Notes: generated from the sequence alone by a model not told the origin. Positions 1 to 23,640 are shown, counted from the first letter of the stretch. The stretch: DNA of 64,000 bases from Balanoglossus misakiensis (GCA_040954595.2 CM082592.2:5176506-5240505), one strand, 5' to 3'. Program-made: numbers and translations.

Positions 1-3000
1 TCCATTTGCACAGGTGGCGCCGTTTCTGCAGGGGTTGCTCGCACATTCGTTAACGTCTTCAAGAGAAATGAAATGTATGCTTTTGCAGTTATATAGCATT
101 GGTATCGATTGCAATGGACTCCGTCAGAAATTCCCGGTACAATCAGCATTTGAAGTCACGTACCTTCAGCACTGTTTGCATATTAAATCATCACATGTTC
201 ACATTTTACAAGTACGAGGTTTCTTACCTGTGTCGCAGTTAACTCCAGTCCAGCCCGCATCACACTGACATTCGTACCCGGAACCACGTGAAATGCACGT
301 GCCGTACACACAAGGGGTACTATCAGCACAGATATCTACCACTAGACAAAAATAAAAACATATTATTTTTAATTTATGTGAAAATCTAAATTCCGCACTG
401 CCAAAAACTAGACTTTGGTCTCTATGGGGCGAAATTGGCCTATTTTCAAAATATAGTTCCCAATTACCCCAAAAGAATAAATGTGACAATCACAAACGCG
501 CACAACAAAAATCTACCTTGTTCGCAATTGGTGCCACCAAATCCATCCACACAGAAACACGTGTAGTACGTGTTGCCACTGACGCAGGTGCCGTTATTGG
601 TGCACGGGTTGCTGTCGCAAGGATCAGCAGCTGAAAGCAAAACAAACTTTGATAATAAAATATGTATGATTGCACTGAAGGCATATTCATGCTTGTAGCA
701 ATTGCCGTTTCTCTGAGCAGTAGGTGGGGCCTAGCGATAACCTATAAGTTTACGTGCACGCTCTGGCCAACGAAAAAAGACGAAATTCGTCTCTATGTAT
801 CAACCAGACTCTGGCTATCCAATTTTAAGTTTCATCTAATATATCGGTTGCAAAAACTGGTTTTACTTACGGATGGTACATCTGTCGCCCCTCCACCCTT
901 GTGCGCAATCGCACACGAAGCCTTGGTTGACCTCACGACAGGTCCCGCCGTTGCTGCATGGGCTTGTGGAGCACGCCGAAGTGGCTGAGGGTTAGATACA
1001 AAATATAAATGCAGGTATGCAAGACCGAAGTAATGAAACGCGCTTAAGACTTAAAGGGCGACGATCGTCTTCTGCGCATGTGCCAAACCAGAGACTCTGA
1101 TTACAAAAAATGTATACGGTCAATGCCATAAGGCAGTGTGCTGTCCCAAAAACAGACAATATCATCTAACCTTAAGGAAAAAGAGTAATAGGGTCCACTT
1201 ACATATGCTGCATTGCGCTCCTGTCCAACCGTCTGCGCACGTGCAGATGAAACTGTCGATGTAGTTCACACAAGTTGCACCGTTCTTGCATGGGGCAGAT
1301 GAGCATGCGGTCCCTATAGGCAAAACGGCAAGTAGGGTTGTTCAGTTCTCTTCGTTCACAAATACGCATACGAATGTCAGAAACAACAAATTAAGATCCC
1401 TAACAGGGAAACGACTGCATATACGAAACGGAAAAGGCGGGAAACTGTACTGACCTGTCTGGCATAGCAGTCCCGTGTATCCGTTAATGCAGTTGCATCT
1501 AAACTGCCCATTCTCGTTCACACACGCTGCGCCATTAAGACAAGGGTTGCTGTTGCAGGGCGGAGCTACAAGAAAATTACATTTTTGATGTGTGTTATTC
1601 CTCGACTATTATGACTAGCCAAATTACGATCGACATCCTCAATTTGAATGGGGCAAATGGAATCACAGAGGGGCGACACCATGTATTGAATACACAGAGG
1701 TAAAGCCGCTTTTTCGCTACTTTCTTTTATTTCAGTTGATTTTAATGTTGTTTTGCTCACTGAGTATATGCTCAACGACCTGCAATCACAATTCAAGTCA
1801 CACGGTGATCCATATTGTGGGCTGTACTTACGAATCTGACAGAACACTCCGGCGAAATCGTCGACGCAGGCGCATTGGAAACTGTTGGACAAAGGCACGC
1901 AGATGCCGTTGTTGAGGCAAGGGTTACTGCTGCAGAAGCTGACAACTGCAAAGAATATGGAAAGTAACATTGTGAAAAAAATAGAGCGTGGCGGCCATCT
2001 TGGAGAATTGACAAGTACCCAGAGGCGACCCTATCTGGTACACAGACCAAGAATGATGACGCAACGATTACATGTACTTCCATCAAACTTACCAATTTCA
2101 CACGTATCACCTCCAAACCCACTTTCGCATAAACATCTGGCAACGAGATTGCCCTGGTCATCGGCTGTCGTGTAGCACGTTCCATTATTCAGACAGGGGT
2201 TGACAGTGCACGGAATTTCTGCAAATATGCAATAAGAAATATACCATCATTTGTTGAGAAGATATGTGTACCACATGTAAGAAAGTTGACGGCCGTATAG
2301 CACTTTCTTCGACATCTTTTACAGAATTAAACTGTCTCCTTACCGGCTTCACAGTTGACTCCGTAAAATCCCGGCAAGCAGTTGCAGCCGTATCCCGATG
2401 CTGTCGAGTAGCATGTTCCACGATTACCGCATGGTCCATTGTTGGCGCAGAGGTCAGCTAAACAAGAAGCACATAGCAATTGGAAGTTGGAAGTACAACA
2501 TTTAAGACAAAGCCTACAATTTCAATGTTATATCACGTTGTTTTAAAACCAGGTGTTCGAACAAGGCTATTTTTCGGCAGCGAAAGCGCATAACGTTCCT
2601 GTCACGCTCTAGTACAATACATTTACCTTCGTGCAAATATTTCAGTCTATTAGAATCACAAGCTTACCTTGTTCACAGTATTGTCCACGCCATCCCACCG
2701 CACACGAACAAGAGTAGCTGCTTCCTTGGGGTAGACAGGTTCCGCCATTGATGCACTGGTTATTGATACAGGGGTCAACTGAAATTGAAAACAAAAATAC
2801 GTTAGGAAAATGTGATTTTTATCTCTTTAAGAGGGTTTGTTAAAATGGTTCTTGAAGGAGGCTTTTACCTACTAGTATTTACTAAGCTTTAGAAAATACG
2901 ATCTGGGGTCTACGAGTATATTATTTCATGTCAGTTTACTGCTGGCATGTTGTATCATAATTCAGCTTCTGTTTTTCTGCAAGCACGTTTGCAGGTTATT

Positions 3001-4440
3001 CAAAATTGGCCGAAGTTGCCGAGTCAAACCCATGTCCCAGATTTATATATTACGCACAGTCGGAATGATTGAGATAGACAGGTAGGTACTGCATGTAACA
3101 AATATGCTTTTCTTATTGAAAAGGGCCCTAATCGATACATTTACAAGACGTGTATCTATATCTACTCACTGACGTCACACCTGTCGCCCTGGAAACCCTC
3201 GAGACAGGTACACTCGTATGAACCAGTGGAGACGACGCGACAAGTGCCGCTGTTGAGGCAGTAATTAACAGGACAAACTGTTGGTGCAGAGCAAAAAGAG
3301 AGGTTTCCATCAGGTGAAGACACAGAAAGAGGTGTGTTCAAGAAATTACATTTGGTACACACACAAAACATACCTGAAATAAAGCCAAAAGTTACAGACA
3401 CTATTCAATATACATTTCGACACCTCAGTTTCTTTCAACTGTACTGTTTCCAATGCGGTTGTTGTATATACCCACACGAATACAACTATGGAAATAAGGA
3501 TTGAAGCCAGGCTCTGTGTCTGGAAATGTCTCCTAATTTCCATCAGTCCAAAAGATGTGATGTCGGCAAGAAGATGGACATTCAAAGGCTGACGTACCTT
3601 CCAGTTCACACTGCGTGCCGGCAAAACCAGACGGGCATGCGCACGTGTAGCCGTTGCCGTCGACAGTGCAGATGCCGTTGTTGTTGCAGGGGTTAGGGGT
3701 ACACGGCGCTATAAGACGATAAAGCAAACCTTATTAGGAATTCGGCATCCGGAAAAGAGGGAGGGCACAAACAATCCGTCAGTTTCAGTTGCAAGCGTAC
3801 TGCGAATCCCCCGTGACACCTTGTGCCCACTTCATTCGTATGTACAGTTATTTAAACGCGCTGTTGGCAGATGGCATTTCCTTTGCGCACACTGAGACTG
3901 GTCAGTGATTGCAAGACAAGCGAGCAAGCAAGCGCGGGGAGAATTAAGGGAGAGCCGGGCTGAGGAATTGCAACAGTGTTCCATCAGCGGGGCCAGGCTA
4001 AAAGAAAATACATGCAGATAAACTGTTTATAGCAGAGCAGCTCTCTTTAAGAATACTCCATTCTGTCACATCCCCTGCTGTGCAATATAAAGCTGTAGAA
4101 AAAAAAAGCAGTATTATACTTAGCAGCATATTAATGGGTTTATATAATGTATATATCGGTGACTGAATATTTTAATACGGTAAAAGGACAATACTTCTAA
4201 ATGATGACGGGAAGCACGCATCGGTGGATAGCATCAGCAATGGCTGCGGTGTTGGAAAACAAAATACATGAGCGTTAGGCGCAAAGCATGTAAAGCAAGC
4301 GTCAATGGTTATTCTGTTTGTCAACAAAATGATTTAAAAAGCGGGGGAGGTTAGTAATATCAGAGTTGACACGAGTTGCTTTGTCACTCGCCGTGCTTTC
4401 ATTCTGAATACTAGTATGTCTGTCTGCATGTGTCCGTACA

Positions 4441-4473
<33 letters not shown>

Positions 4474-7400
4474 CAGTCAGTCAGTCAGTATGTTCCTCTG
4501 CCTCTGATATTTGTGCCTTCAGAACATCAATCTCTCGGCCCTTACTTGGGATGGTACAATCGGTTCCGGTAAAGCCTGGAGTGCAATAACATATATGCGA
4601 AGATCCCAATACTTCGCACCTGCCGCCATTTTGACAGGGCGATGGCATGCAGGGAGCTGCCGACACAAAGTAGAAAGAAAATTAGCAAAAACACTGCAAA
4701 TGAACATTAGTGCGTAGAATGGGGAACTAAGTTACACGTTGACTTTAATCACAGAATTAATATATATATACAAACAAACAAATAAATAAATTCAGTTCAT
4801 AATACCTATTTCACAGAATTCGCCAACAAAGCCAGCTGCGCATGTGCAGGACATGACTTCATTTATAAATGTACAGGTGCCACCATTTTGACAGGGATAT
4901 GATACACACGGTGCTGAGAGGAAGGTGGGGATTGCACAAGGTCAGAGTTGAAAGGTGAATGTAGAGCAAAAGACATTGCATTATCACATACAAAGAATTT
5001 TACAGTGGTATTGTAGCTGTAATACTTTTTCAGAATAGCTATACATGTAGTAGGAAAAAACAACTGGTGCCTTCAAGCGAGGGCTAACGACAATTAAATG
5101 TCGTCTTCTAAAGAAAAAGAACTGAAGTTTCGACGAGTTGCATTATGACATACACAAGATTTACTACCAAAACGATATACAGTACATGTAAGGTAGGGAC
5201 AGACAGAAATTCTCGGCGGACGTAGCGGCAAGTTCAAACGGCTAAGCAAATAAGCCTTCTCAACAGCATGGCGATTTCGTCAAAGTGAAAGTTACCTATC
5301 TGACAAATGGTCCCGACGTAACCCGACTGACATGCGCAGATAAATGTATCCGTTGTGACGTAGCAGATACCTCCGTTCAAACACGGATTGGGGAGACATG
5401 GCGCTAAAAGAGTAAACATTTGGAATCAAAGCGTTAACATCTAAATTATTGTTTCCGAGTTTTCTATTCTGCATTTACAGAAAAGGTTAGAAGCTGTGCT
5501 GAAGAAAATGTTCGTCCGACCAAAAATATTGCTTGTTAATCATAATTGGAGTTCTTAAACTCGACTTGTTCGGTAAAGTTGCTTACTGGTGTTTTCACAG
5601 TTAGTTCCAAGGTAACCGTCGGGACACGAGCAAAAGTAGGAACCGGAGAATGTAATACCACACGTCCCGCCATTCAGACACGGATCAGGGTTACATGGGG
5701 CTGATGACGGACAAGGAAGAGGGAAAGTAAGTAAGGAATACAGAAGAACGATGAACACAATTTCTGATCAGTTATTTTAATCTATCAATACGTTTGTTTG
5801 TGTGCTTGTTTGTTTATCTGGTTGTTTGTTTCAGCCAATGACAACAAAACAACAACAGCAACAAAGAGAGACAGAGCAAGAAAGAAGTTCACGTACATAT
5901 TTCACAGTTAGTGCCGATGTATCCATCCGCACAATTACATCTGTATCGGTTGATGTCCACGATGCACACGCCGCCATTTTGACACGGGTTAGACTGGCAT
6001 GGAGCTACACAATAAAAGACGTAGTCATAGCAACGGAAACAAACATTGTTTTAAGTTAAGAGATGTGCGAGTAAAAGTTAGCACTGGCAGAGACGCTCGC
6101 TCGTGCAAGAGGTAGAAAATGAATAGAAATTCACGTAGCACCACATAAAATGTCTTCTTTGCAGAAACCTGCACTTCTTCATGGTACGGGTTCAATCATT
6201 GAACTAATCACATACGCATGCGAATCAAACGAGCGGCGCAGCAGCGAGACCCGGAGATAGGCGGGTTGTCGGCAAAGCTTTGCTTAAATTTACATCCTTC
6301 ATACATTCTCTCCAAACAGGTTTACCGTATGTGAATTTGCAGGCGCAAGCTATGATTTGTGACTGGCAATTAGAATCACAATCGTGCCCAGGCTTTGTTA
6401 ACAGATTATGCGAATAAGCGCACTATAACGGGGTCTGCGAATTCAAAGCAGGTCAGCGAATAAGAAGCTTAAAAGTAAGAAGATTAAATAATAAGAGAAC
6501 TGGTGACTGGAACGCCTGGTTAGAACAGGGCAATGCGGCAAGGGAAAGAAAGTGTCAATTAATCGCATTAAGATCTTCAGCGCAAACTACAGTAACTTGC
6601 GCCAACAATAATGCATGCAGCAGTCAAGCAAAGTGATCATCTCAGTTTGCTAGCTTCACGGCCTTGAATAGCAGCTCCAAAGCACTAAGAGGCGTTCCTA
6701 TAGCACAGAAGCAAAAAAAATCAGTTATTTAATAGCATCGGGGGAAAAACAGAGATGTGTAACCTGTTTCGCAGTTTACTCCAATGAAACCGGCTTCACA
6801 CGAGCAGAAGTAGCCACGGGGATCGCCATTCAGGTAGCACGAGCCGCCATTTTGACACGGATTCGGATCACAAGGCGCTGAAACGGAACAAGTGATTACA
6901 GCTAAAACCATGGAAACGGGGTTTTAAAGGTTAAATATTCGAGAAATATACACATAGTCAACATTGACACAACTGTGACCAACGTGTCACTGTGTAAACT
7001 TAATTCGGATCCCAGGATTTGGATAGACTAGTAGCACAGTGAATTTCCCCTTTCAGCTATGCCTGCCTGCCTAGGGGGAAATCTGTGACGGTACAGCGTT
7101 TACTGTTAGGCTCGGCTTGAGGTTGCAACATTCACTTACTGGTTGCCTCTACCGTGCAGTTGATTCCAGTAAAACCCTGTGGACAGTTACAGAAATATGT
7201 TCCATCTGTCTGAATGATACACGCCCCGCCGTTCAGACACGGAGACGGATTGCACGGAGCTGCAAGAAGCGGTGAAAATATAAATTAGTGTATTTGCGCG
7301 TGTGGCTCCACCTGGCCATCTCGCGCTCCTAGGACAATAGAATATCTTTCTATTGTCTATTCTCGGGCATAACACTCGAGATAAACGCAATATACAGTTA

Positions 7401-10400
7401 CTATAACAACAGTAGTTATGTCTCCGCAAATATGGCATACAGCATGACAGTACCAGCTGAAAAGTAAGGCTGGGGTTTTAAGTTGACATCAGCGTCGGTG
7501 CTGAAACGAAACCGGTAGGCTGCCATAACCCAGTTCCCACGAAACGAGGGGGTGGTACTTACTGATTTCACAAACAAGTCCCGAGAAGCCTTCAGAACAG
7601 GTGCATTCAAAAAAGTTGCCGACGATGGTGCACTGTCCGCCATGTTGGCACGGATTGGGCAAACAGGGAGCTGTCAAAATAGACAAAATCAGAGTGGTTT
7701 ACATGCGATATTTTCAGTTAAATAGCACGTGATTCTCATGTGGTTGAATTGGCCAGTATTACGATTCATATTTGGTCTCCTTCCCGGATTTTCGTTATAG
7801 CATGGGGTTTTTAAGTCATTTCGCTTTGGTTTTGGTAAGTGACAAAATGACAGATTTTCGTTCACGGCGGCAAAAACACAACTGAAGACAGATATCTTCT
7901 TACCAGTTTCGCAAAGGTCACCAACAAAACCGTCGGGACAGATGCATATGTAGTTGGTGTTGTCGAACGAGTTGAAACAGGCTGCGCCGTTTCTACAAGG
8001 GTTACTCGAACACGGATCGACTGAAAACGAGGACAAAAAAAAACGTTTCAAAATTTTCAGTGGCGGTAGAACCACACTCGCCTCGTTCATAGCGAAAGTT
8101 GAAAATAGGTGAATTGCAGCAAAGTGTTGCAGTTGTTATAATAGTAAAGGGTGTGAGACGAAAATGCGCCTTGCAGCTGCATTGACTGTCTGCGAAATGA
8201 AAACAAAGTTAGAGTTAATAAGCGCTGATTTTAGCGAGCATTAAATAAATGAAAGTTGTTATATAGTTATTACTTTATGTAGTTTATATATACGTAATAC
8301 GAGAAAATCAAGAAAAGACAGAAAATAGTTTTATAACTGTTTTAGTAATCTGAAATAAAAACAGTTTTACAGCTAATAGATTGAAAACGGCTTTAGAACT
8401 AATTTAAGACGTCCGGAGTGTTAGTACATGTAATAGTAAAAAGAGAGATTCTTATTTTACTGTTACATAAAATTAGCAGTCTACTCTACAGACATAAAGG
8501 CAATTAACACACGCACGAAATCTACAGTTACATCCGGGAATGTGCTCGACTTATCCAATGAAACTAAAAGTAGATCAAGATATTGCATTTGGTACACAGA
8601 ACAAAACTACAGGAAATAAAGCTAAAAGTTTACAGCTAATGTCCCTTTAATGCAACTGATGACTTCCAGTAATATGCAACGGCCGGATAGTGGACACTCA
8701 CGAATGTTACAGACGTCGCCTGTGAAACCACCCAGGCACTGGCAGTCGAATGAATCGGTCGTCACCGTACATATCCCGCTGTTCAGACAGGGGTTTGGAT
8801 CACAAGGGGTAACTGGAGAGAGAATAAAAATTGTCGGTGAAACATTTCGAGAATAATCCTCAATTAAAACGAGTTAAAAATCATGAAGATTTTCTGTGAC
8901 AAGAAATGTGTTTGCGCAATTGCGTGCATGCTGACTTGAATGCTCCTGTATGGGAGATTGGTCCTTCTTTACTCAAAGCAACACATCCACCATTCCTGGC
9001 TTATACGTGTGTATAAAACAGCAGCTGAACAGTGACCTATATAATTATGTATTTTTACAGTATTTAACAGAATAGGTGGTTTGTTGACTCTTGATATTCA
9101 AGAAAGCGCTGGGTTGCCAAGGTTTCAACTTGTGCTGTTATCAAATTATACGCCGCAATTATGATATATGTAAACATAAGCGCGGGAAAAATAACGGAAC
9201 TATTGAGCTGAAGCAGTTAACTGGGGATATATAATGCGGGGGTGTTTTCTGTAAGGAAAAGAAACGCATAGTTTATTTGTGATTATCGGGTCGTTACTTT
9301 TATCGCCAAAACCGCAGAAAGCTTCATGTGCGTCGAAAATGCAAGGTTTGTCGTAGACTGACAGACAGGAAGTGACGTCATACTTAAACAGGTGTCACCA
9401 ATGTATCCGCTGGGGCACAGGCAACTGAACGTTTCGCCGAACGACGTGCACACGCCGCCATTTTTGCACGGATTCGTCGGTTGACAAGCGTCTCGCACTG
9501 TAAAGCAATCGATTCTGTTCAGTTAGTGCGTCAGTTGTGGTTGTCTTCCATTTGTCGGGGGAGGGGTATAACGAAAAATTCAGATTCTGTAGCTCGTTGC
9601 TATGAGGGACAGGTCAGTTTCCTCGGCCTGGGGCGGTGGATTCTATTTATGGATATCAAAACGTGACTTCCCCCACTCATTGAATATGGAAAAATCGGTG
9701 ACTTGCCCCCCCCCCCCCCCCCCCCCCATTACCCAATTCCAAAACAGGGTGGCCTCCCCCATGAATACACCGCCCCCGGGCCAAAGAAACTGACCTGTCC
9801 CTGGTAAAATTATTGCCATTACAGGGTCGTTTCATTCTCACATATACATGTACTAGCTTCTCATCTTGATTCTTCTTGTCCACTTGGTCGTCTTATTGCG
9901 TACAGAATGAAATTCTTCTCGCTAGAGACTTTGTCATACATGATGCTCACACACAGATTCCATGCAGTGAAATATAACAATTAATCATAGAAATTCATCA
10001 AAAACCACAACATTTTACTATTTATGAGTCTTATTAAATCAGAACCCTATATCAGGACATCCCATCGCATGAATGACGCATGCGTTCAAAGTTGACCGCC
10101 TGATTAGTGTCTGCCAATCGGCAACACGTCTCTCAAAACTGTCGTGCTCTGAAGATAATTTGGATTGACGACGTTACCTGCACATGTCGAACCGCCATAC
10201 CCTGTTAGACAGTTGCACTCGAACGTGGTGGTGCCGGTCACAACACAGCCCCCGCCATTCAAACAAGGGTTCGGCGAACATGGAGATCCTGAAACAAGAT
10301 GGCGGAAAATTAGCATGAAGGCTGCGCATCAATACTGCGTAGACTCATCATGAAATTGTGCATAATTAATGTAGTGTTGAGTCAACACACACCTACCAGC

Positions 10401-13400
10401 ATTTTTTTTCAAAATGCCTACGTACTAAAACAGAACATTCTTTATGTGAATAAATTTAATTAACGCGATTTGTGTTTGATTTGGAAGAGGCAAGACAATA
10501 GTGTATGCCAGTACAATGTACATGTATGTACAAAACATGGTCTGTTTCTATAGGTGTCCCAAACTCACCTTGATAGGCGTCACAGTTCTGGCCGGTGTAA
10601 CCTGACGTACATTGGCAAATGTAAATTGTCGAGTCCAGGCGAGTGCACACCCCTCCGTTTTGACATGGATTCGGACTGCACGGATCTGTTATAATCGAGA
10701 AATCACCAGATCAGTAGAGTTTTAATTTAGGGGACATATTTATCAAACTTATTATTTTGATGATCGAACACTTCATATTCAATTAAAATAGGGGGATAAA
10801 TACGATAATATAATATGTCGTCGGGGTATATAGACTGACCTGGTTCACATCTTTGGCCAGAGTACCCAAATGGGCAAGTACACGACCAGCCGTTGTTGAA
10901 GATACTGCACACGCCACCGTTCAAACATGGCCCCGAAGCACAAGGATCAAAAGTGCCTATAGAACCAAGAAAAGATGTTGACTCAGAAATCTTTGCACTG
11001 ATGCAATATTCAGTCTGTCTTTTCAAACCAATCGGCCCAGGCTACACACAGTAATCGAACCTGTGAGTATGTCAAAGCACGTTTGAAAGATACCACCACG
11101 GTCTAGGGCCAGTCATTGTCTATTACTCAGTGATGAAACAGAATTATCTATGGACAGATGCGACATTTAGCAAAACGTGAGTTCCATATCCACTTACCAG
11201 CGCTGTATGTCAGTTCAGGTGATGTTAAACCCAACCAGTAGATGTCAAAGGACCACGCCACAGTAGCCCTGAATTGACAAAGAAAAATACGTCTCTTATA
11301 AAAGCTACTGTTTGCGTTGTGAACGAGTTAAAAAAAATTGAAAACGGGTACTGCACATTCAGAATATGCATAACTTTGTGATGTCCTACCAACTGAACAC
11401 ACGCTATACTCTCAAGTCCATCTTTAATCTGTAAAGTTGCCTAGGGTTTTATGACTACTACAAGAGTCATCCACGAGGATATGGTATTGCTAGTATCCTC
11501 GGGCTCCCTCCCATACTTACACAAAGTGGATATTTCCAACCGACGAGCTTGGCGGTGTCCACGTAAACGTGATGTCGTTTTTGCCGTTGGTAGCCGTGTG
11601 GGTGGCCGAGTCGGCAGGCGACGTGCAATCGCTGGTTTTTGTGTTTATGGGCGCATCGGAGAATGTCCCCACGGGTATAGAGCTTCCTACGGGTCGGGCC
11701 TGGAGCAGAAACCCGGGCACATAGCCGTTTATTATCACTGTGGATAAAACAAGCAGAAACGTTGCATACTAAAGTATTTCATGCCGTGTCTGTCTCGTGG
11801 AATCTTTTCTACAAACGTTCGATGATACAGAAACAGTGCTATCCGTACGCACTGGTAACACTGCCTACTCACATTCATTTTATGGGTGCAGGTGAACTTA
11901 GTTTCCTGATAAACCTAAATCGTTGACACTGAGACCGTCACTTTCGCGGTCACTTCGGGTCACTTGACCCGCGGATCAACTGAAAAGCTGAGGACTGTAC
12001 GTTGGCCGAAACAAGGACACGTGAATATTAAAAGGTCGTGGGTAGCTAAAGTTATTTGGCTTTCAACAAAATACTTTAAATAGCAGGCACAAGAGCGAGG
12101 TCACGTCAACTGTGACCCAAGATATTTGCATAACAAAGACAAGAGTCGTGGAGAGATCCCTGGGTCATGTGGGTGGGTATTTTCATTCGCTATCCGGCAC
12201 AGCACTGCCACTGGATGGGTGATACTTGTCGAGAACACAGCGATGAAGATATTAAACAACATTTACTGGATTAATGATAGGTAGAAGATTTGAACTTTGT
12301 TATTGTGGAAAATGTGAAAATTTGGCAGCTCATGGGGCTTTAATGAGTGCAGCACCCTACTATAACGACGGATCAGTGGTGCGAACAACCATAAATAAAC
12401 GGAACCTTGCCCTCGATATGCGTCGTTTGAAAAGCGGCATCTTCTGGCATTCAACAAACTGTTGATGTCTAACTTAATCACTGATGTCACGTGACCTTAG
12501 GTGCCTATAATTCATCAACTGCATGTCCTTTCGTTATTTGACACCAAACAATCATGGAAAACTCTTGTTTTTTTGCTATTTTTGTATTCGGACGCCGTTG
12601 AAACGACATCGAATTTGCTGTCCACACTGTCTTATCCGATTCGGTCTCAGGGCGTACCAGTCGCTTTTGTTTGTTTATACGTTTGTCTGTTTTGTTCGCA
12701 TCCAGACGAGGAGGGCGTCGACGGTCAACAAAACGAGTTATGACAATTGGAGGAGTGAATTCAGGCAGGTTATTTATAGTACCACTGTTCTATTGAATAT
12801 GTGGTTAATTGTACGGCAGGGGTTCTTGGTATCAACCTTCTCTTGTTATGTTTCATCATACCGAAATATAGGCTTTTCGTTGTCACGTGTATGCTGACAA
12901 ATGAATCAATGAATGACCTGAGTTCAAGTTTGTTTTGAACTAATCTCTACCACGAATTGTTCCTGTGTACACAATGTACTGCATGTCTCGAAAACATCTT
13001 CGTTTGAATCCGGCGATTGGGCGACGTCTTAATTAAATCATATAGGACAAAAAAGTGTGAGTTGATTGTTTTTCAAATACAAACACGTGTATGGGTGTGA
13101 ACGTCTATAATGTATTGTGCTGGCATTCTCTGGCGTTGATTCACCAGTTTGGCCACGCAACGATTTTACTAACGTGCGATGTGGTGCCGTGTGTTGCGGT
13201 GGCCATTAACAGTTACATGATTTCAAATTCCGGTTAACAACCACTGAACGGTTCCGGGCGCGTTCTGAAATCTCATATTTTGTTTGAATATACACTCATT
13301 TGTTTTAAAAGTGGGACCATCTAAAACGTCTGGTTAAAAGTATTAAAAGTTGATAGTAGGCGCTATTATCATCATTTCCTCGATTTCGATGCGTTCGCAA

Positions 13401-14289
13401 ATCACTCGCTGTAGAACCTTTTCACTGGAGTCACTGAATAAGCCCAACGTGCTTGCATATTGCTGGTCGGTTATGTCATCGGCATGACAATAGAGAGATA
13501 CAACCCTTACATCGACAGAACTATGGTGAAAACCGCTTGTCATTTGGCACTCTGCTCGCGAGATCAGTCCCGGTTGTAAAAGACTAAATGTATATCCTCT
13601 GCACTTTTCAGCCATTGACTGTCTCAATCTTTCAGTCCCCAGCTTTCAATATCTTTTACCACGGACTACGGTTTAAGACATAATATTACAGGAAGTCAAA
13701 CTGGCCGATATTAATGACACACAGGTGTCCGTTCTACTGTTTGACTCAACAAGACTTAGCTTTTTTTCAAGGGGTCGTGTGATAGCTATTTCAGGTACTC
13801 AATTTTGTAAGGGAAAGTAATACAGCACCGTTCTCTTATGTCCTTACTTGAGATGGGCACCATAAAAGTTGTTGACATTGGCGCAGTGAAAGACATGATA
13901 TGTAATTGGTTGTTTAGAAGGCTTATATTACCAGACGGCAGTTTTTCAGTCGTTGGACAGTCACTCTGGGTCGTGTATGATATTTTTTGTAGGGCTGAGT
14001 GTATAACAGGCGATATTTCGACTTCGCGCATAACACGCGTTTCGTAACGCCAGCCTATATCTACGCTGGTCTTACCTTGAATGGGCTGGTTGGGTGTGTA
14101 CGTCACCGAACTCACTGAAATCGTATTTTGCGGAGGGGTCTCCTGCGGTTGGGTGTTCGGGTGCCCCGGTGTCAGAGTTTCACAGGCCGACGACGGAGCA
14201 CCGGTGGGTCGACTGTGGACGTCTGCTATCAGAGCGGCGCAGAGCAGAAGAGCGACGGCAGCGATTCTACTGTGACGGTACACCGCCAT
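1..14289 (-). CDS. Reeler domain + multi-EGF (fibropellin/Notch-like repeats) protein with signal peptide; 3' end lies outside the window
   Basis: Exon 1 14076-14289: signal peptide [26 protein letters not shown], then the Reeler start [17 protein letters not shown]. Exon 2 11521-11737: GFLLQAR...VGTF...DC...SATHT...ITFTWTPP...GNIHF. Exon 3 ~11198-11268: [11 protein letters not shown]. Then 26 phase-1/phase-1 EGF exons: 10840-10956, 10569-10685, 10178-10288, 9384-9497, 8702-8812, 7904-8020, 7563-7670, 7140-7259, 6764-6877, 5897-6004, 5587-5700, 5296-5403, 4806-4913, 4546-4656, 3598-3708, 3170-3277, 2668-2778, 2344-2457, 2093-2218, 1832-1945, 1455-1565, 1203-1313, 871-984, 517-630, 228-341, <1-56. 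All have GT-AG ends and the 25 complete ones have lengths divisible by 3. Confidence 0.9.
4417..4488. repeat. (GTCT)n/(GTCA)n microsatellite, intronic
   Basis: Directly visible tetranucleotide run. Confidence 0.9.
9605..9802. mobile_element. ~200-bp MITE with ~40-bp terminal inverted repeats (PIF/Harbinger-like GGG...CCC ends)
   Basis: Left end agggacaggtcagtttcctcggcctggggcggtggattc matches the reverse complement of the right end (agggacaggtcagtttctttggcccgggggcggtgtattc). Internal poly-C tract. Putative TSD imperfect (tga/tgg), so the superfamily is tentative. Confidence 0.75.
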
Positions 14290-15188
14290 CTTGATTCAAC
14301 AGGTCAGGTATGGAGAGTGAGCGATGCTACGGGACACCACCCTTCATTGTGTGAAAGTGCTTTTATTTTCTCATGCAAATGCGGCGACGTGAAAAGAAGG
14401 CGCACACAGTTAAGCATACCTATAGTATTCATATGTAAGCAGGGCCATTTAGGTCAGCTTTGTCCATCACATGATATCTATCATGAAGCCATCTTATCAA
14501 TACCAAATATCAACCATGTGGTAGACAATGAACAACACTGCACTGAAATATCATATTTTGTTGGAATACACGCGCACATGTGCACGAAGATGTGCTCACG
14601 CCAAACTTTGTCCGAAGTATAAAAACTGACCATGGGACAGGTATGCATCGATGAATCCGATTTATTTCAAATATGCTTACATCACTACCCGAATAGATTT
14701 TCGTCTCCGAGGCAATAGTCATGGTAACAATTATGACAATTGTCGCGCATGTGTCTTACTGCTGTTGGCTGTGGTGATTGGAATGACCCCCCCCCCCCCT
14801 CCTAAATTTCGTTCACAAAATGTGTCTGAGAAGGACTCGACATATTGAGTTTTTCTACCATCAACTTAAATTAACATTAATTTCACTCGTCCATCTTTGC
14901 AATAACAAGTATTGACAATAAGTGCATTTAGTCTACTTGGAGAAAGAAATTGCATCAAATTCATTAAATTTTATAACTCGAAATCGTCACCATTGTCTGT
15001 TGCAAAGAGTGGAGAAAATCATTTCTATGAAAATCTCTCACGTTTGAATGTGGTTAATTCTGCGTGCATTCCTGGGTATTATCATGACAATAGTTGAGCT
15101 AGGCCTTTCCGCCTACCAGCGCGGAATGGCCGTCATAACCACCATTGTTTTCATTCAAATGTCACGGGCCTTGACTCGGACGGTAAAG
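14290..15188. promoter_or_regulatory. Probable bidirectional promoter between the two Reeler-EGF genes
   Basis: Only ~900 bp separate two divergent ATGs (14289 minus, 15189 plus), each followed by a signal peptide. Start sites are not mapped. Confidence 0.55.
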
Positions 15189-18100
15189 ATGGCGACGCCT
15201 AGGTTGGCCCTCCCAGTTCTCGTAAGTGTCTGCTCTGTTCTGCACGTCCTGTCCGCCGCGTCGAACTCCAGAACCCGACCGTCGATATGCCGTCACGTAA
15301 AGGACGGCCAAGCAATGTTTGACGCCCCTGCGGAGTCCGACTGGGTTCTGTGGGCCGGGGAGGGTCCGGATGACCAGTCGATCACCGGTATGTACACATA
15401 GCACAATGCTGAATCGTATATGACTGTATTATCTGTTCACAGTGGCCGGATAGTGGTCCGAGGAACCGTCGCTTATATCAGTGCGGTCATCTCATGTAAT
15501 TTAGCGCACATTTTCATTTCTGCCATTCAGGCTAGACTCTCCATGTTAGATCATGCCCGTCGGAAGATTGCGAAATACAGTATTGGGGTTACACACCCAT
15601 TGTTTACAACGTCTACCGAATACTCCCTTATACACAGCGCCCATAAAGGTTGTATACTTAAAAAGGCCCGATTCAATATACGTCACGCGGCTTTTGTGTC
15701 GGCGATCTTTCAACAGCAAAAAACTATTTGCTTGCACTAGATTTAACTGCAACATTAAATACTGTACATCGAATTCAGAAGCATTTTAAAACGGGTCGGC
15801 GGGGCGGATTCCACCTTTGTCAATACATTTGAATTCTAATACAAAGAGCGCTTCTGTACCTTTAACTCACGTATTAAAAGACACTGTTTTTCTGTATATA
15901 TGTCTATACGTCTGTCCATACGTCTGTCTGTCTATATGTCTGTCTGTCTGTCTCCCATCTATTAGTTAGGATAATTGGTTCTTCAAGTGTAGTGACCGAA
16001 CTGGAGCTCCTGGTGCGCTCACTACAACAATCCCACACATCCATGAGATGGGCATCCACGACAAGTGACGTCAGAATTACAACCTGTCGTTCAGACAACG
16101 ACACACTACAGTACAAGTACTCCCCGTCGTACTCAACGCAAAGCTTCAGGCTGAGTAAATCAAAACTCAAAACGGAACCATTTGAAATAATGTAAGTTTT
16201 CAAGTCTCAAAATTTCAGCTTTGACTACTAAGTAATTCTGTGGTGGAATATAACACACAATGCAGTCACCGAGCAGCAATGTAAATATAGTGTGCTACTT
16301 CAGCTTGTACGTTTTTATTATTTTCCAGTGTTTTAATAAATCGAAGTTACCCACACGGTGTTGAGTCATCTATATTGAAATGGAGACAACTTGGAAACAC
16401 GCAAAATAAATTTCAGCGAAAAGGTAAGCAGCAAAGGGCGTCCTCACCCGAACTCAAAACTTTGGGGGGGGGGGTATTCCTAACTTCGCCTCCGATCCCA
16501 GTATTGAGGGTGAATAACCAGAAAACGTGCGACACCATGATATTAAATATACATGTCACCTTAGAAGAAAATTACACTGGGGACTGCCGAAAGTCAAACT
16601 GGCTCTGATTGGATGGAAATCTCTATCACTGACGGCAGCCGTCAACGCAAATTCGCTTTCACTTTTTATTAAACCTTCAGCTCGGGCTGTGGAGTGTGAC
16701 GTCATCGTTTGCGAAAATGGCGGAGTGTGTGTTACCACAACAAATACCTGTGACTGCGCAACGGGATACATCGGGGGACACTGCGAGTGTATGTCATTTT
16801 ATTCCACAGTTATAGTTTGTCTAGATAGGGACAAAGTAAATAAAAAAGTTAAGTTTATGCATTTTATAAAATATGTGTGAGGAAGATGTCACGTTTTTCT
16901 TTGCTTGGGTACAGTTTTAATTGTTTGCCTTTCAAAGCTAACTTAGATTCTCTTTGCATGTGTACAGACCGAGACCTATGTTCAAGTATGCCCTGTCAAC
17001 ACAACGGGTCTTGTTTACAACCTGAGACCAGCGACAGATATGTGTGCACTTGCAAGGATGGATTCGAAGGAGTGGACTGTGAAATTGGTAAGTTCGAATT
17101 TGTTGTTTCCGAGGCTACTGTCTTGTATTGTCCGAGATCACCGTGGCAGTTCAAATACGAATACAAAACTACTTAAATGATTTTTCAACATGCCGCTACC
17201 TTAAAACTACTGTTATTTTTTTAATCAGAAAAATAAGAATTTTAGCCCTTTTCGCGTTATTTTGTGTTTAACATTATGGCTGCGTACCTATTTCAGAATT
17301 GCCCCAAGAAATATCCTGTAACGACATGCCTTGTCAAAATGGCGGCACCTGTTACCAAAGCAACGACCATGATCTCGGATATGTCTGCACGTGCCCACGG
17401 AACTTCATGGGTGTCAACTGTCAAATAGGTAAATTATAATGTTATAAAGTGTGGTTGGGTGGATGTGTATTCTTGTCGGCCTCTATACGTGTCACTCTGT
17501 ATAGAATCGTTCCATAAAGTTGCATCTCCGCTTAATTTTGTTCTGTTTCAGCTACGGGTATGGACAACTGCGCTTCAAATCCCTGTGTACGCGGAACGTG
17601 CTTGAATGTTGCCATAGGTTATTTGTGTGAAACAGGTAAGAATGAAGTACATGTACTAGTTAACTCACTAGCTTGCACGCATTTTGTGTTTTTAAAATAA
17701 CGTACAACCGATCGAGGCAATATTGACTAAAGTAACACGGTTTTTGTTGATTTCCAGAAGTCACCACATCTTCACAGAACAGCGATTCATATCCAAGAGG
17801 TCCTAACCCCCAGCCCTCATCGAAAAGTAAAATTGATGGTACGTTTTGCAAGTCTCTCGTTCTAGAAAAAAGTGCTGACGATCATCATCATTTCGGTGGT
17901 TACGCGACGATTTGCGTGTCTTGTTAATCTTCGTTGCACTTTCCGCGCCATTCGATTGCGTTTTTACTTAGCATAAACATGTATGTATATGTGGTCTCTC
18001 ATCAGTTGGCGTGATCGTTGGGATTGTCGTCGCTATGATACTGGGCGTCGCCATAGGGATAAGCATTTCAATTTTCATCTATTGTTTCAGGTAAGTTACT

Positions 18101-18703
18101 TATCATCCTCAGTCTGTAACCACCCCCTCCCTTACCAGAATTGAACCACCCAGAAACCTAGCATTTATTTGATTTGATTCGATTCGCAGGAGAAACAGTC
18201 GTGATGATGAATTGTACGCCGAACGCGGTCTTGAACGCACACGGGGCGACCAGGAGAACCAGCGGCGCCAACGCAAAGATGACGCGCGCGAGTTTCCCAT
18301 GCGCTCGTACGAGTCGATGACGTCGATATACGACGGACTGCCCGACAACACTCCCGTGGTTTTGACAGGGGAGCATCACCACGGCAACGGAGTCGACGAG
18401 GCGCCCGCCTCTTCGACCGACAATCTGGCGGCAGGTTCGCAGCACCACGGCACTCCACAAGAGCGCAAAACTCGCACTCCACACAGTAACCTCGCTCTGT
18501 CCCCGGAGAGTGTGCAACTGCACGAGGAACGTGCGTCGTCAGCCCGCCCGACAAACAGTGAACAGTCGAGAAACGCCACTCCGGCTCAACATACAAGTAT
18601 ACCGCTAAACATAACGCACACAGAAGCGAGGAACATAAACGACACCGAATCCAAGTCGTCAACGAACGATTCGAATTTCAACCAAATCGAGCAACCCGAC
18701 TGA
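15189..18703 (+). CDS. Type-I transmembrane protein: signal peptide, diverged Reeler-like domain, 3 EGF + 1 truncated EGF, TM helix, low-complexity cytoplasmic tail (~520 aa)
   Basis: Exons 15189-15387, 15966-16191, 16329-16423, 16681-16788, 16968-17087, 17297-17428, 17552-17635, 18006-18090, 18190-18703 join in frame (1563 nt). Signal peptide MATPRLALPVLVSVCSVLHVLSA. TM VGVIVGIVVAMILGVAIGISISIFIYCF followed by RR. AATAAA at ~19217. Confidence 0.85.
15901..15952. repeat. Degenerate (GTCT)n microsatellite just upstream of the exon 2 acceptor
   Basis: Visible tgtc repeats. Confidence 0.75.
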
Positions 18704-19391: not shown

Positions 19392-20785
19392 TCACTGATG
19401 TTTTGAATTGTCCGGGTGAGATTCTTTGACGCTTTCCTGTGTATGACAATAAAAAAAACTTAGACCCTATTACAAAGCCAAAGAGGATGATTCAATTTCA
19501 CAAACCAATCATTCTTTTCTTTTCTTCTCCTTCTGATGACTCGCCAAACACTTTTAAGCCAAACTGAGCTGGAGGTTTCCATAGGAGTGTATACGAAACT
19601 TTTACCCCCCCCCCCCCAAATTACAACACCATCTGAAAATGTCCACTGCCGAAACGACGTTCGCCACAAAATTTTATAAACGACCTGTATCAATGAACTC
19701 ACCAAGAGAGGGCGTCCCGCGGTTTCTAATGGTAAGAGCAGACATGTCACAGCTACCACGAAATTGAAAGCAACATAGAGACACAGAGCAAGTATGGGCG
19801 ATGATGCAACTAATGCCTGCAAATAGAATTTAAATAGTTCAGTGAACTCAGTGCGGAAAGGGACATAGCTGGATAACAGCTATTCCATACATGTGTATAA
19901 TGGAACAATTCCAATAATTTCATATTGTTAGGCCTACACATAAATTATGATAACCATGACGAATGCAATATATTGCTAACTTACTACAATAGGTTTGAAC
20001 ACCCGCTTGTCTATGACTAGGCTCTTGCAACATCTTCAGGGAGAAATGTATACCGTTATGTATATACAGAAAATGCCCAAGTGAACAAGTATGGGCTTCT
20101 ATTTCAGTTTATGTACCGAGGCGTCAATTTTCCACACTCACTTGTCCCAAGTATGGGGTCACCATTTCACCTAATCTGCTGAAACTTTGACACAGGACCA
20201 CACCAGATGACCTCACTGTAGTAGGGTAGACCTCACTTGTATAAAGGAATGCCATGTCAAACAAGGCTGTACTAACGGCACGGACCAAAAATCCAACGGC
20301 GACAAAATACGTGCTTGAATAAATAGGAAAGTAAGCTGAGATATTGCTTCGATCAACGTAGTATATGCCCTGGCACATACCCACGCACAGACCAATGCGT
20401 ATACACCCATCCATCCATACACAAACATACATCCATCATCCGATGGGTTGTTTTTCTTTTGCATATATCTAATCAAAGGCTTGTGGTTATCCCAATTTTG
20501 ACTTCTTGAACAACTTATACTGCTCGTGTGACCCTGGTGTGACCCCTACCTGTTCACGCAAACCATCAGCAATAGATAGGTGACAGCTGTAATCACTGAG
20601 AGTAAAGCCATGCTTCGTTTTCTTCCCAGCGCATAGTCGGCGACAATGCTAACTGGTATTGCTGCAGATGGTGGAAAGATGTTCATTTTATTCTCGTGAC
20701 AATGACGACAGACAGGAGACAGACAGACAGACGGACGGACGGACGGATGGGTGGGTGGGTGGGCGGGTGGACAGACAGACAGACG

Positions 20786-20816
<31 letters not shown>

Positions 20817-23640
20817 ACATACTTCTTACATGCACACCTCCGTGTATTACACTCCAAACATACCTAGAGCTTCCCCACACGACGTCAATATTGTTACCAG
20901 GTAAAGCTCAGACGTCACCGGACGGCAGTCACAGCCCCACTCACTCGCCGTGACCGTGGAAACACCTCCTTTGATCGCTGAACACACATCCGAAGTACTC
21001 TGTAGTGTTGTGATGACATATACCGCACCGTAATAGGAAAGACCAGAACCAAACCTTTTTTTCAAAAGATCACAGTAAGATTTTAGTTTGCTCCGTTGTC
21101 CCACGACAGACAGCGAATAGATCATGTCTTTCTCATCTGTAGCATTCGACATGTTAATGTAATCGTTCCGTTTCAGATCGGTTGAGCCATTTGAACCACT
21201 GTTGTTTTGATAGTACATGTATGTCTTTATGACTTGTCTATTCAAAAAAAGAACCATACAGTCATGGTAATACTGTACTATACATGTACGACTGAGTGGC
21301 TATATTGGCCGTCATGCCTGTATTAATAACTTAGATTAATAATCTAAATGATCGTTATTTTTGTACTCACCACAAGATTGCCAGTAGTACAGTGACCCGT
21401 CTGTACTTTTTATTGAACAATTCCCCCATTTTCCCTCGTTCACTCTGTAAATATAACAAAAGGAAGGTTTTCACGTAGTGTCCAGTCTATCTACTTGAAT
21501 TTTACGGGATTCGAACCTCGATGTACCGCTTCAATTTTGCGATTGCTAAGGTGGCGGATAGGTCTACTGTGACATGGGCGAGACATAACGCTTTACAGAA
21601 AATTGCATACATACATACATACCTTTGTTTCGACAACGCCCACCTTCAGCCGTCCGGGGGGTAAGTTGGTTTTATTTGTATCAGCTATCTTTTTCAGAAT
21701 GTTTGTCGCTTTCTGAATGTCTCCTGATGCCACGCAGTAATGCGGTGACTCTGGAATATACTGAATATGCGTAGAAATAAAAATGTTCTGAAGGATTACT
21801 TGCGTTTAAAACATCATAGAATGACCGATTTGAATATTTAATAAATTTCTGCAATCAGGGATATAAATTGACATTTACTGCGTCACAATTGATAAAAATT
21901 GGTACAGACATTGAATTCGTAAACTTGATTGATCTGACTGCATATTGGATGAATTTTGGTCTTAATAACTGCATATTTTTTATGAAACTTGCTACAGATA
22001 TTGATCGCCTGTGGTAAAACGTATAAGAAGGCTTCGTGGGACGACTTACCGGCAATCCTAACAACAATAAGAAGAACGGCAACGAAGATATCGCTACAAC
22101 CACTCTCCATCCAAGTGTTGGTATGATGACGTAATCAAGCACGCTCTGGAGGATGGTACCAAATACCCACGTGGTCTGGAAAAGATAGTTGCACCATCAT
22201 TACATCTCTGAGTTCGATATGAGATGACGTATGTACATCAGGACAGATACTACAATTAATGATTTTTTTCGCTCATTTACTCACCCAAAATGCCAGTAAA
22301 AAAGACCCCCGGTTCGCGCTTGGTAAAAATTCGGCAGCGTACGGAAATGCGATAGGCCCGCCTCCGAGGGACACGCCCATCACAAACCTTAAAAATAACA
22401 GCCAGCCGTACGTAGGTCCGAACGCACTGAGGAGTCCATAGTAGCCTCCTATCACAGTGACAGCAAACAATACCTAAAACAAGAAGAAATGCAAGGGTTG
22501 ATTGTACATTGATTGGTGTTTTTTTCATCAGTGAAAAAAGTCCAACACGGGGAGTGATTCATATAATGTGCAATTCACCGTGGTTTCGGGATGGGTTGAG
22601 AAAACTCTGTCCGACGTGAGAATGTTAGCTTTATTTTGCCTTGACGACAAGATGTTGTACCTGATTATGCAAAACGCAGAAAGTTCCATCCACTCACATA
22701 GCGAACTGACTAACAAGAACAATTGACAGTCATCTGGTGATAATTAGAATAATTGCTCGGAAGGTGCGAGTTGAATTCCGATCAGATGACGTGATTGTTC
22801 TGTGCCGCTGAGCAGAATAATATCGATAATTTCGATATGGAAATCTTATACTCCCAAAAAAATGACTTTTTAGATTTTGTAAATTTAGATATACGCAAGC
22901 AGTGATTCTTACCGTCCGACGCCCGAACTTGTCTGCCATTACTCCCCAACCGAAACATCCCAAATACGCGCCAAGAAACACAACCTGAGAAATGCAAATG
23001 AACTGTAAATGACCGCTGCCTCCAGCAACAACAACTTCCTCGCTGAATTATCGACAATTGGTGGAAAGGTGGCGAAAGTGTGTGACTTACGGCTCCAATT
23101 GCAGCTGTCTGGGCGTTGGATAACATCCATTCACACTGAACTGGTCTCGAAACAGCGGAAATCAGCAGAGACTCGAAGGCTTCCGATATCTGTGTAACAA
23201 AGATACAAGTTAAAGGCCCATGAGCTGCCAAGTTTCATACATATATATCATATATTGTCCCCCGCAACAAAATACTTCAAGTCTTCTTCTCCTTATCATT
23301 TGCATCGGTTTGTCTTGGTGACGCATACAACGATAGCTGCGTACTGTTTGCATGGAGTCTGATTAAACTGGTGCAGCACCAGTTGAATGTATCACTTGTT
23401 CAAATTGCAATATACAGCCACAATGTTTTTTGTCTACCACAATTTATTTTTTTTCCAAGGGGAGAACAATGGTGAGATATCGAGCTTCGTTGAAACGGGT
23501 GTCGGTTTCCCACTCACATTTCCCATTCCTAGCATGATTAAAATAAACACTTGAAATCGTCCAAAGCCAATTTTGGTCATTGCTTCCTCGACGGTGAAAG
23601 TCTGGTCCTCCGTCACTGTACCATAGTGACCGTCGGCCAT
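19392..23640 (-). CDS. SVOP: SVOP-like (synaptic vesicle 2-related) MFS transporter, ~484 aa
   Basis: Exons 23518-23640, 23091-23189, 22913-22984, 22285-22473, 22050-22175, 21623-21760, 21371-21444, 20864-21054, 20550-20661, 20142-20313, 19703-19816, 19392-19436 join in frame (1455 nt). Motifs TFTVEEAMTKIGFGRFQ, QCEW, WGVMADKFGRR, YAAEFLPS..RG, LGWR, IPESP, YTSEVYPTTVR, LPLETAGRPL. Could be an SVOP/SVOPL paralog rather than the ortholog. A 5' UTR exon probably ends at a donor near 24326. Confidence 0.88.
20706..20815. repeat. Compound (GACA)/(GACG)/(GGGT) microsatellite in an SVOP-like intron
   Basis: Directly visible; it generates the spurious CLSV/TDRQ ORFs. Confidence 0.9.

What the first reader, a model, noticed from the sequence alone, without database searches (positions are those of the whole stretch)
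11198..18703. Head-to-head Reeler-EGF pair: a giant Reeler/multi-EGF protein and a receptor-like paralog with a cryptic Reeler domain
Seen in sequence: the N-terminus of the plus-strand gene aligns with the Reeler domain of its divergent neighbour. [18 protein letters not shown]...NQPIQ| corresponds to SNSRTRPSICRHVKDGQ...DQSIT|. [39 protein letters not shown] corresponds to ELELLVR-SLQQSHTSMRW-ASTTSDVRITTC-RSDNDTLQY with no gaps. Both cysteines are kept, and the first three introns fall at equivalent positions with identical phases (1, 2, 1) before the EGF exons begin. Inference: an old inverted duplication produced a very long Reeler-EGF protein and a short membrane-anchored partner whose Reeler surface diverged almost beyond recognition, sharing a ~900-bp promoter. 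This looks like a co-regulated ligand/receptor, decoy or recognition module. Established: Reeler domains occur in reelin, F-spondin, ferric-chelate reductase and insect immune (Noduler-type) proteins. I do not recall this paired arrangement being described.
Basis: partly seen in the sequence, partly recalled or inferred. Interest (0 to 1): 0.8.

Follow-up and report, generated by a model that had tools for sequence, protein, structure and literature searches.

The report
Hidden Reeler tip on membrane receptor
In this likely acorn-worm genome, two genes face away from each other: one encodes a long rod of EGF repeats tipped by an ordinary Reeler domain, the other a membrane protein that databases call "delta-like" but whose tip is likely a heavily eroded Reeler domain, making it a probable cell-surface recognition protein; that the two bind each other is untested.

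Summary
Observation confirmed; interpretation partly supported. Gene 1 (minus strand, ATG 14289): signal peptide, Reeler (Pfam E 6.5e-13), at least 26 EGF exons, running off the window. Gene 2 (plus strand, 15189-18703; 10 exons, 547 aa): signal peptide, N-domain, 4 EGF, TM, tail. A Ptychodera flava orthologue (XP_070571940.1, 'delta-like protein A') supports the gene model and points to a hemichordate. Pfam misses gene 2's N-domain, and free pairwise alignment to gene 1 is not significant. It is still likely a Reeler: introns 1 and 2 split equivalent codons; a 64-residue gapless alignment anchored at intron 2 scores z 3.4 (orthologue 5.5); ESM Atlas features give Reeler for the ten best family hits (0.89, a lead only). 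Two low-confidence AlphaFold models gave a beta-sandwich without a Reeler hit (inconclusive). Reeler+EGF proteins are already a 100-member, mostly echinoderm database cluster, so the architecture is not new; a membrane-anchored, eroded version is an unrecognised variant. Shared promoter, co-expression, sister-paralogy, synteny and binding could not be tested. No earlier finding of this scan matched. Interest 0.4.

The parts
14076..14289 (-). Gene 1 exon 1: signal peptide and start of the Reeler domain (Cys1); phase 1
   Evidence: Pfam Reeler positions 1-34, E 0.099
11521..11737 (-). Gene 1 exon 2: core of a canonical Reeler domain (Cys2); phase 2
   Evidence: Pfam PF02014 E 6.5e-13; ESM Atlas features 0.94, Reeler
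11198..11268 (-). Gene 1 exon 3: last Reeler strand and linker; phase 1
   Evidence: no Pfam hit on its own
1..10956 (-). Gene 1 EGF array: 25 complete one-EGF exons (all phase 1) and a 26th cut by the window start; the gene continues outside the window
   Evidence: O-fucose consensus in 10 of 25 by my pattern
14290..15188 (.). 899 bp between the two divergent start codons (UTRs plus promoter or promoters; transcription starts unknown)
   Evidence: CpG o/e 0.85
15189..15387 (+). Gene 2 exon 1: signal peptide and start of the likely Reeler domain (Cys1); phase 1
   Evidence: (orthologue)
15966..16191 (+). Gene 2 exon 2: core of the likely degenerate Reeler domain (Cys2); phase 2
   Evidence: 44% identity to P. 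flava XP_070571940.1, E 3.9e-7; anchored gapless match to gene 1 exon 2, z 3.4
16329..16423 (+). Gene 2 exon 3: end of the N-domain and basic linker leading into a conserved RKAR motif (completed by exon 4); phase 1
16681..17635 (+). Gene 2 exons 4-7 (16681-16788, 16968-17087, 17297-17428, 17552-17635): four EGF domains; the fourth has only 4 Cys and lacks the C5-C6 loop present in the orthologue
   Evidence: Pfam EGF on the orthologue, 4 stretches
17758..17838 (+). Gene 2 exon 8: short Ser/Pro-rich stalk
18006..18090 (+). Gene 2 exon 9: transmembrane helix, 26 of 30 residues identical to the orthologue, two GxxxG motifs and a juxtamembrane Cys
   Evidence: hydropathy peak at residue 349; motif label from recall
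18190..18703 (+). Gene 2 exon 10: cytoplasmic tail of about 170 aa with conserved blocks (acidic Tyr site, MRSYESM, VVLTGEHH, C-terminal IEQPD)

Best explanation
Gene 2 encodes a conserved single-pass membrane protein whose tip is likely a degenerate Reeler domain, and gene 1 a canonical Reeler domain on a rod of at least 26 EGF repeats; they are likely old duplicates of one Reeler-EGF gene that now do related but separate surface-recognition jobs. Shown: both architectures, the orthologue, the intron correspondence, and conservation of the TM and tail motifs. Inferred: gene 1's long rod holds a standard Reeler (in other animals a binder of heparin, matrix or microbial polysaccharide) far from the cell or in the matrix. 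Gene 2 holds a re-surfaced Reeler close to the membrane on four EGFs, binds some extracellular ligand, may shed the tip at the conserved basic RKAR site, and reports or is internalised through its conserved TM helix and Tyr motifs (YESM fits the YxxM / YxxPhi pattern, label recalled). The ligand is not identified and need not be the gene 1 product.
For: Orthologue with the same layout: identity 12/24 signal, 64/150 N-domain, 91/141 EGF, 8/24 stalk, 26/30 TM, 69/140 tail. Intron-anchored gapless alignment to gene 1 exon 2: gene 2 z 3.43 (24 of 20000 shuffles), orthologue placed on gene 2's columns z 5.51 (0 of 20000, 13 of 64 identical); against natural 64-mers from 147 bacterial ORFs, 91 of 45815 and 1 of 45815 score as high. 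Global alignment gene 1 vs orthologue z 3.36 (5 of 2000). ESM Atlas on orthologue residues 24-176: best three hits Reeler at 0.89, 195-199 of 256 features shared, ten of the ten best family hits in one family; by structure the highest TM (0.66 over 136 residues) is to a Reeler+EGF cluster. The two-sequence profile scores above 60 of 60 column shuffles against both a 24-sequence bacterial Reeler-like profile and gene 1. The nine predicted strands fall where the anchored alignment places gene 1's motif blocks (my reading). Reeler ligands: heparin (PMC3117680, passages); microbial polysaccharides and cells (PMC12113285, passages).
Against: No Pfam or NCBIfam Reeler hit for gene 2 exons or the orthologue at E up to 10. 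HH-suite probabilities only 3.3% and 0.8% (gene 1 as positive control 68%). Two AlphaFold models were low-confidence (pLDDT 60.7 and 52.0) and listed no Reeler structure among the rows shown in four searches. In the Atlas structure search the only row meeting the bar for a name is DUF11 (TM 0.58), and feature scores under 0.9 are leads only, uncalibrated for parts of proteins. Gene 2 EGFs show no collinear match to gene 1's first EGFs (best matches scattered: EGF10, 24, 9, 25), so sister-paralogy has no independent support. No expression, binding or cleavage data.
Confidence: 0.6

Rival explanations
1. The two products are a dedicated ligand-receptor (or ligand-decoy) pair: the long gene 1 protein binds gene 2 through a Reeler-Reeler contact, both are driven from one bidirectional promoter, and gene 2 signals through its Tyr motifs.
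For: Start codons 899 bp apart, divergent. Reeler domains can form weak homophilic dimers (stated in PMC8011033 citing Tan et al. 2008; passages; the original was not held). Both gene bodies keep CpG (o/e 0.95 and 1.14, against 0.51-0.53 for two housekeeping-type neighbours), as expected for genes without germ-line body methylation (inference). Conserved TM and tail.
Against: Adjacency is what a local duplication leaves by default. Gene 2's tip shares only 7 of 64 residues with gene 1 in the core, so an ancestral homophilic surface is unlikely to survive unchanged. Gene 2's core is not charge-complementary to gene 1's (16 basic/15 acidic against 4/8). Gene 1 may itself be membrane-bound, since its end is outside the window.
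Confidence: 0.15
2. Both are Reeler-EGF family members but not each other's closest paralogues; they lie together as remnants of a larger family cluster or by rearrangement, and have no special functional link.
For: Reeler+EGF proteins form a 100-member, mostly echinoderm cluster. Intron positions may be ancestral to animal Reeler genes (recalled for F-spondin, not tested). No collinear EGF similarity; no long inverted repeat between the genes (longest arm pairs are 32 nt or less).
Against: The same exon-2 length apart from 3 codons, and direct head-to-head placement, are most simply explained by one duplication; no third Reeler gene was noticed in the remaining 45 kb of the window (ORF lists, not a dedicated search).
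Confidence: 0.17
3. Gene 2's N-domain is another Ig-like beta-sandwich and the protein is an atypical Delta/DLK/DNER-like EGF membrane protein unrelated to its neighbour's Reeler.
Against: No DSL or MNNL match at E up to 10; anchored alignment statistics, two kept Cys and two exactly placed introns; ESM features.
Confidence: 0.08

Closest known systems
Reeler domain family (Pfam PF02014): F-spondin and reelin N-domains, insect Noduler, crustacean Reelers, ferric-chelate reductase 1
   Same: Gene 1 has a canonical N-terminal Reeler right after the signal peptide; gene 2 likely has the same fold, with both Cys and the intron pattern.
   Different: Gene 2 has lost most signature residues (PGH, GF..Q, G.F, TH, the Trp before PP) and sits on a TM protein with a conserved tail; none of the described Reeler proteins in the passages read has Reeler directly on an EGF-only stalk.
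Echinoderm Reeler+EGF proteins (ESM Atlas cluster auto-named 'adhesive plaque matrix protein 2-like', 100 members, Reeler 100%, EGF 98%)
   Same: Same domain order; best TM-score (0.66) for the orthologue's N-domain.
   Different: Representative is 649 aa with a Pfam-visible Reeler; gene 1 is over 1100 aa, gene 2 has a Pfam-invisible one plus TM and tail. Database entries only; no paper found in 10 searches.
Delta/Serrate ligands and DLK/DNER-type EGF membrane proteins
   Same: Type I membrane protein, short EGF array with O-fucose and O-glucose consensus sites, cytoplasmic tail.
   Different: No DSL or MNNL domain; the N-domain points to Reeler. The database name rests on the EGFs (inference).
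Choanoflagellate Sema-FN1 (PMC8011033, passages)
   Same: Membrane protein tipped by an N-terminal Reeler, proposed there to aid dimerisation.
   Different: Sema, PSI and FNIII domains instead of EGF; canonical Reeler.

Membership tests
Reeler domain (gene 1) | Pfam PF02014 score above the curated cut-off | tested here: met
   49.8 bits against cut-off 21 on exon 2 alone
Reeler domain (gene 2) | Pfam PF02014 match | tested here: not met
   no hit at E up to 10 for exons 1-3 or the whole orthologue
Reeler domain (gene 2) | Two conserved Cys at equivalent positions | tested here: met
   Cys2 at the same distance from intron 2 in both genes; Cys1 33 vs 36 from intron 1; both kept in the orthologue. 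The disulfide itself is not shown
Reeler domain (gene 2) | Sequence homology to a bona fide Reeler | tested here: met
   anchored gapless z 3.4 and 5.5, natural-sequence null 91 and 1 of 45815; free pairwise gene 1 vs gene 2 not significant
Reeler domain (gene 2) | Reeler beta-sandwich topology | tested here: inconclusive
   AlphaFold all-beta, pLDDT 60.7 and 52.0, no Reeler among listed rows; Atlas model TM 0.62-0.66 to Reeler clusters, under the bar for a name
Reeler domain (gene 2) | Binding to heparin, matrix or microbial glycan | not testable with these tools
   needs binding assays
Delta/Serrate Notch ligands | DSL and MNNL domains before the EGF array | tested here: not met
   Pfam on the orthologue lists only EGF-type families and a TM match at E up to 10
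Bidirectional co-regulated gene pair | Divergent orientation, starts under about 1 kb apart | tested here: met
   899 bp ATG to ATG; transcription starts must lie closer unless UTRs overlap
Bidirectional co-regulated gene pair | Co-expression and conserved synteny | not testable with these tools
   no RNA holder listed; no genome held; the orthologue's neighbours could not be read
Ligand-receptor pair | Physical binding of the two products | not tested
   gene 1's Reeler is split over three exons and no database copy was found, so no whole domain could be handed to the complex predictor

The most novel reading that the evidence does not exclude
Acorn worms (and perhaps echinoderms) have an undescribed Reeler-tipped signalling pair: a very long Reeler-EGF rod and a short membrane partner with a re-surfaced Reeler, encoded head to head, binding tip to tip, with convertase shedding of the tip and signalling through a conserved GxxxG helix and Tyr motifs. 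It would be the first receptor built on a Reeler domain and would mean that many 'delta-like' or 'notch-like' entries in deuterostome invertebrates hide such receptors.
Probability: 0.15. Interest if true: 0.7.

Novelty: new variant of a known kind. Interest (0 to 1): 0.4.

Why it matters
Reeler domains are known as tips of secreted matrix, shell and immune proteins, and their ligands are poorly defined. A conserved membrane protein with an HMM-invisible Reeler, filed as 'delta-like', corrects an annotation, warns that counts of Notch-pathway genes in hemichordates may include such proteins, and offers a natural pair (canonical and eroded domain side by side) for asking which Reeler surface does what. 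It is modest unless binding or co-expression is shown.

Full report
1. What is in the sequence. The window is intron-rich animal DNA. Gene 1 starts at 14289 on the minus strand with three exons (214, 217, 71 nt; phases 1, 2, 1) for a signal peptide and a Reeler domain; exon 2 alone scores 49.8 bits on Pfam PF02014. Then come 25 complete single-EGF exons, all phase 1, and a 26th cut by the window start: at least 1109 codons, end unknown. Gene 2 starts at 15189 on the plus strand, 899 bp from gene 1's ATG, and has ten GT-AG exons with an open 547-aa frame: signal peptide, a domain of about 140 aa with two Cys, a basic linker, four EGFs, a short stalk, a TM helix and a tail of about 170 aa.

2. 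Gene 2 is real. A search of 1.84 billion representatives with exon 2 gave 2 hits; one was a repeat artefact, the other a 543-aa protein at 44% identity, which RefSeq names 'delta-like protein A' of Ptychodera flava, XP_070571940.1. It aligns end to end with my model: N-domain 64/150 identical, EGFs 91/141, TM 26/30, tail 69/140, continuous across the junctions of exons 1-7, 9 and 10. The window is likely from another enteropneust hemichordate (inference from this single best relative).

3. Is the N-domain a Reeler? Against: no Pfam or NCBIfam hit; free local alignment of the two window domains is at chance (z -0.47) and global alignment marginal (z 1.77); HH-suite probabilities are 3.3% against a 24-sequence bacterial Reeler-like profile and 0.8% against gene 1, where gene 1 itself reaches 68%; two AlphaFold models of the orthologue's domain (pLDDT 60.7 and 52.0) are all-beta but list no Reeler structure in four searches, and I had no positive control for that route. 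For: intron 1 splits a Val codon in both genes and intron 2 splits the equivalent Val/Ile codon at phase 2; Cys2 is the same distance from intron 2; fixing the alignment at that intron gives 64 gapless columns scoring z 3.43 (24 of 20000 shuffles), and z 5.51 (0 of 20000) with the orthologue's residues placed on gene 2's columns. Only 91 and 1 of 45815 natural 64-mers reach these scores (windows over recognisable Reeler-like domains were left out). Of the 21 slid registers tried none scored higher, though one (11 residues) came within 2 points. Both HH-suite scores exceed 60 of 60 column shuffles. The ESM Atlas returns Reeler clusters as the best feature matches for the orthologue's residues 24-176 (0.89; 195-199 of 256 features; ten of the ten best family hits agree), and of ten structure rows the highest TM, 0.66 over 136 residues, is a Reeler+EGF cluster; the tool calls scores under 0.9 leads, and the only row meeting its bar for a name is DUF11 at TM 0.58. 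I put Reeler homology at about 0.9.

4. The third matching phase is nearly forced by the EGF exons, and exon 3 differs by 8 codons. The first two introns show homology, but from recall the vertebrate F-spondin gene has introns at the same places, so they may be ancestral to animal Reeler genes (not tested here). Reeler+EGF proteins already form a 100-member, mostly echinoderm cluster in the Atlas, so the architecture is a wider family, and gene 2's EGFs do not map collinearly onto gene 1's. Local duplication remains the simplest origin but has no tree or synteny behind it. 'Shared promoter' rests on ATG distance only. 'Ligand' assumes that gene 1 is secreted; its end is outside the window.

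5. How it most likely works. Shown: gene 2's TM helix is far more conserved than an anchor needs (26 of 30) and carries two GxxxG motifs and a juxtamembrane Cys; the tail keeps an acidic Tyr site, MRSYESM, VVLTGEHH and the last five residues; a basic RKAR precedes EGF1 in both species. The N-domain (43%) is no better conserved than the tail (49%) and much less than the EGFs (65%). Inferred: a cell-surface recognition or adhesion receptor whose eroded Reeler tip binds an extracellular ligand, may be shed by a convertase, and whose TM and Tyr motifs couple to dimerisation, endocytosis or SH2 adaptors (motif labels recalled). Gene 1 presents a standard Reeler at the end of a long rod. Known Reelers bind heparin (PMC3117680, passages) or microbes and their polysaccharides (PMC12113285, passages), occur in shell matrix (PMC9365450, passages), and can form weak homodimers (PMC8011033 citing Tan 2008, passages); EGF arrays are common in marine adhesives (PMC9382459, passages, which never mentions Reeler). 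Both genes keep their CpG (o/e 0.95, 1.14) whereas two housekeeping-type neighbours are depleted (0.51, 0.53), which fits restricted or inducible expression but does not show co-expression; the neighbouring MFS gene is also undepleted (0.93). Direct binding between the two products is possible (0.15) but has no evidence.

6. Comparison and novelty. Gene 1 is a member of the Reeler family. Gene 2 fails the Pfam test, passes the Cys, intron and anchored-alignment tests, and is inconclusive on fold: likely a degenerate member. It is not a Delta/Serrate ligand (no DSL or MNNL). Reelin combines Reeler and EGF but with reelin repeats between (PMC4882317, passages); choanoflagellate Sema-FN1 is a Reeler-tipped membrane protein with other domains. 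Ten literature searches listed nothing on a Reeler-EGF membrane protein or pair in ambulacrarians (listings and abstracts only, open-licence papers only, supplements not seen). Verdict: real, unrecognised variant of a known kind; interest 0.4, rising to about 0.7 if the pair proves to bind and signal.

Noticed in passing
window 17552-17635: Gene 2's fourth EGF has four Cys: 11 residues covering the C5-C6 loop of the orthologue are missing in frame, and no replacement is coded in the next intron. The C1-C3 and C2-C4 pairs could still form. Lineage change, allele or assembly error is open.
   Followed up: partly
window 14284-14292 (minus) and 15186-15194 (plus): Both start codons sit in the same 9-mer AAGATGGCG, which occurs only three times in the window; it resembles the YY1/Kozak overlap motif (label recalled).
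   Followed up: partly
window about 20100-23800 (minus): MFS/sugar-transporter-family gene converging on gene 2's 3' end (weak Pfam MFS_1 and Sugar_tr hits); SVOP-like by recall.
   Followed up: partly
window about 28200-36300 (minus): Rab-GAP TBC-domain gene (Pfam E 1.6e-16).
   Followed up: partly
window about 50300-60000 (minus): Ataxin-2-like gene (LsmAD and SM-ATX) with a long Gln/Pro/His-rich C-terminal exon at about 50500-51230.
   Followed up: partly
window 1-24000 against 28000-60000: Sharp change in CpG content (o/e about 0.95-1.1 against about 0.5), as in mosaic gene-body methylation of invertebrates.
   Followed up: no
window 9605-9802: Intronic inverted repeat (29-nt arms, 90%, 140 nt apart, with a C-run between), MITE-like.
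   Followed up: no
window 1-1565 (minus): Towards the window start gene 1's EGFs gain hydroxylation/calcium-binding consensus features (EGF21, 22 and the partial 26th), suggesting a stiffer segment beyond the window.
   Followed up: no
L001 1417-2883; L003 1278-2744: Bacterial proteins from metagenome contigs with a Reeler-like (choice-of-anchor V type) N-domain bearing a Cys-x4-Cys-His motif share the FTWTPP stretch with gene 1; gene 1 exon 2 also hits NF041895 weakly (E 0.017).
   Followed up: partly
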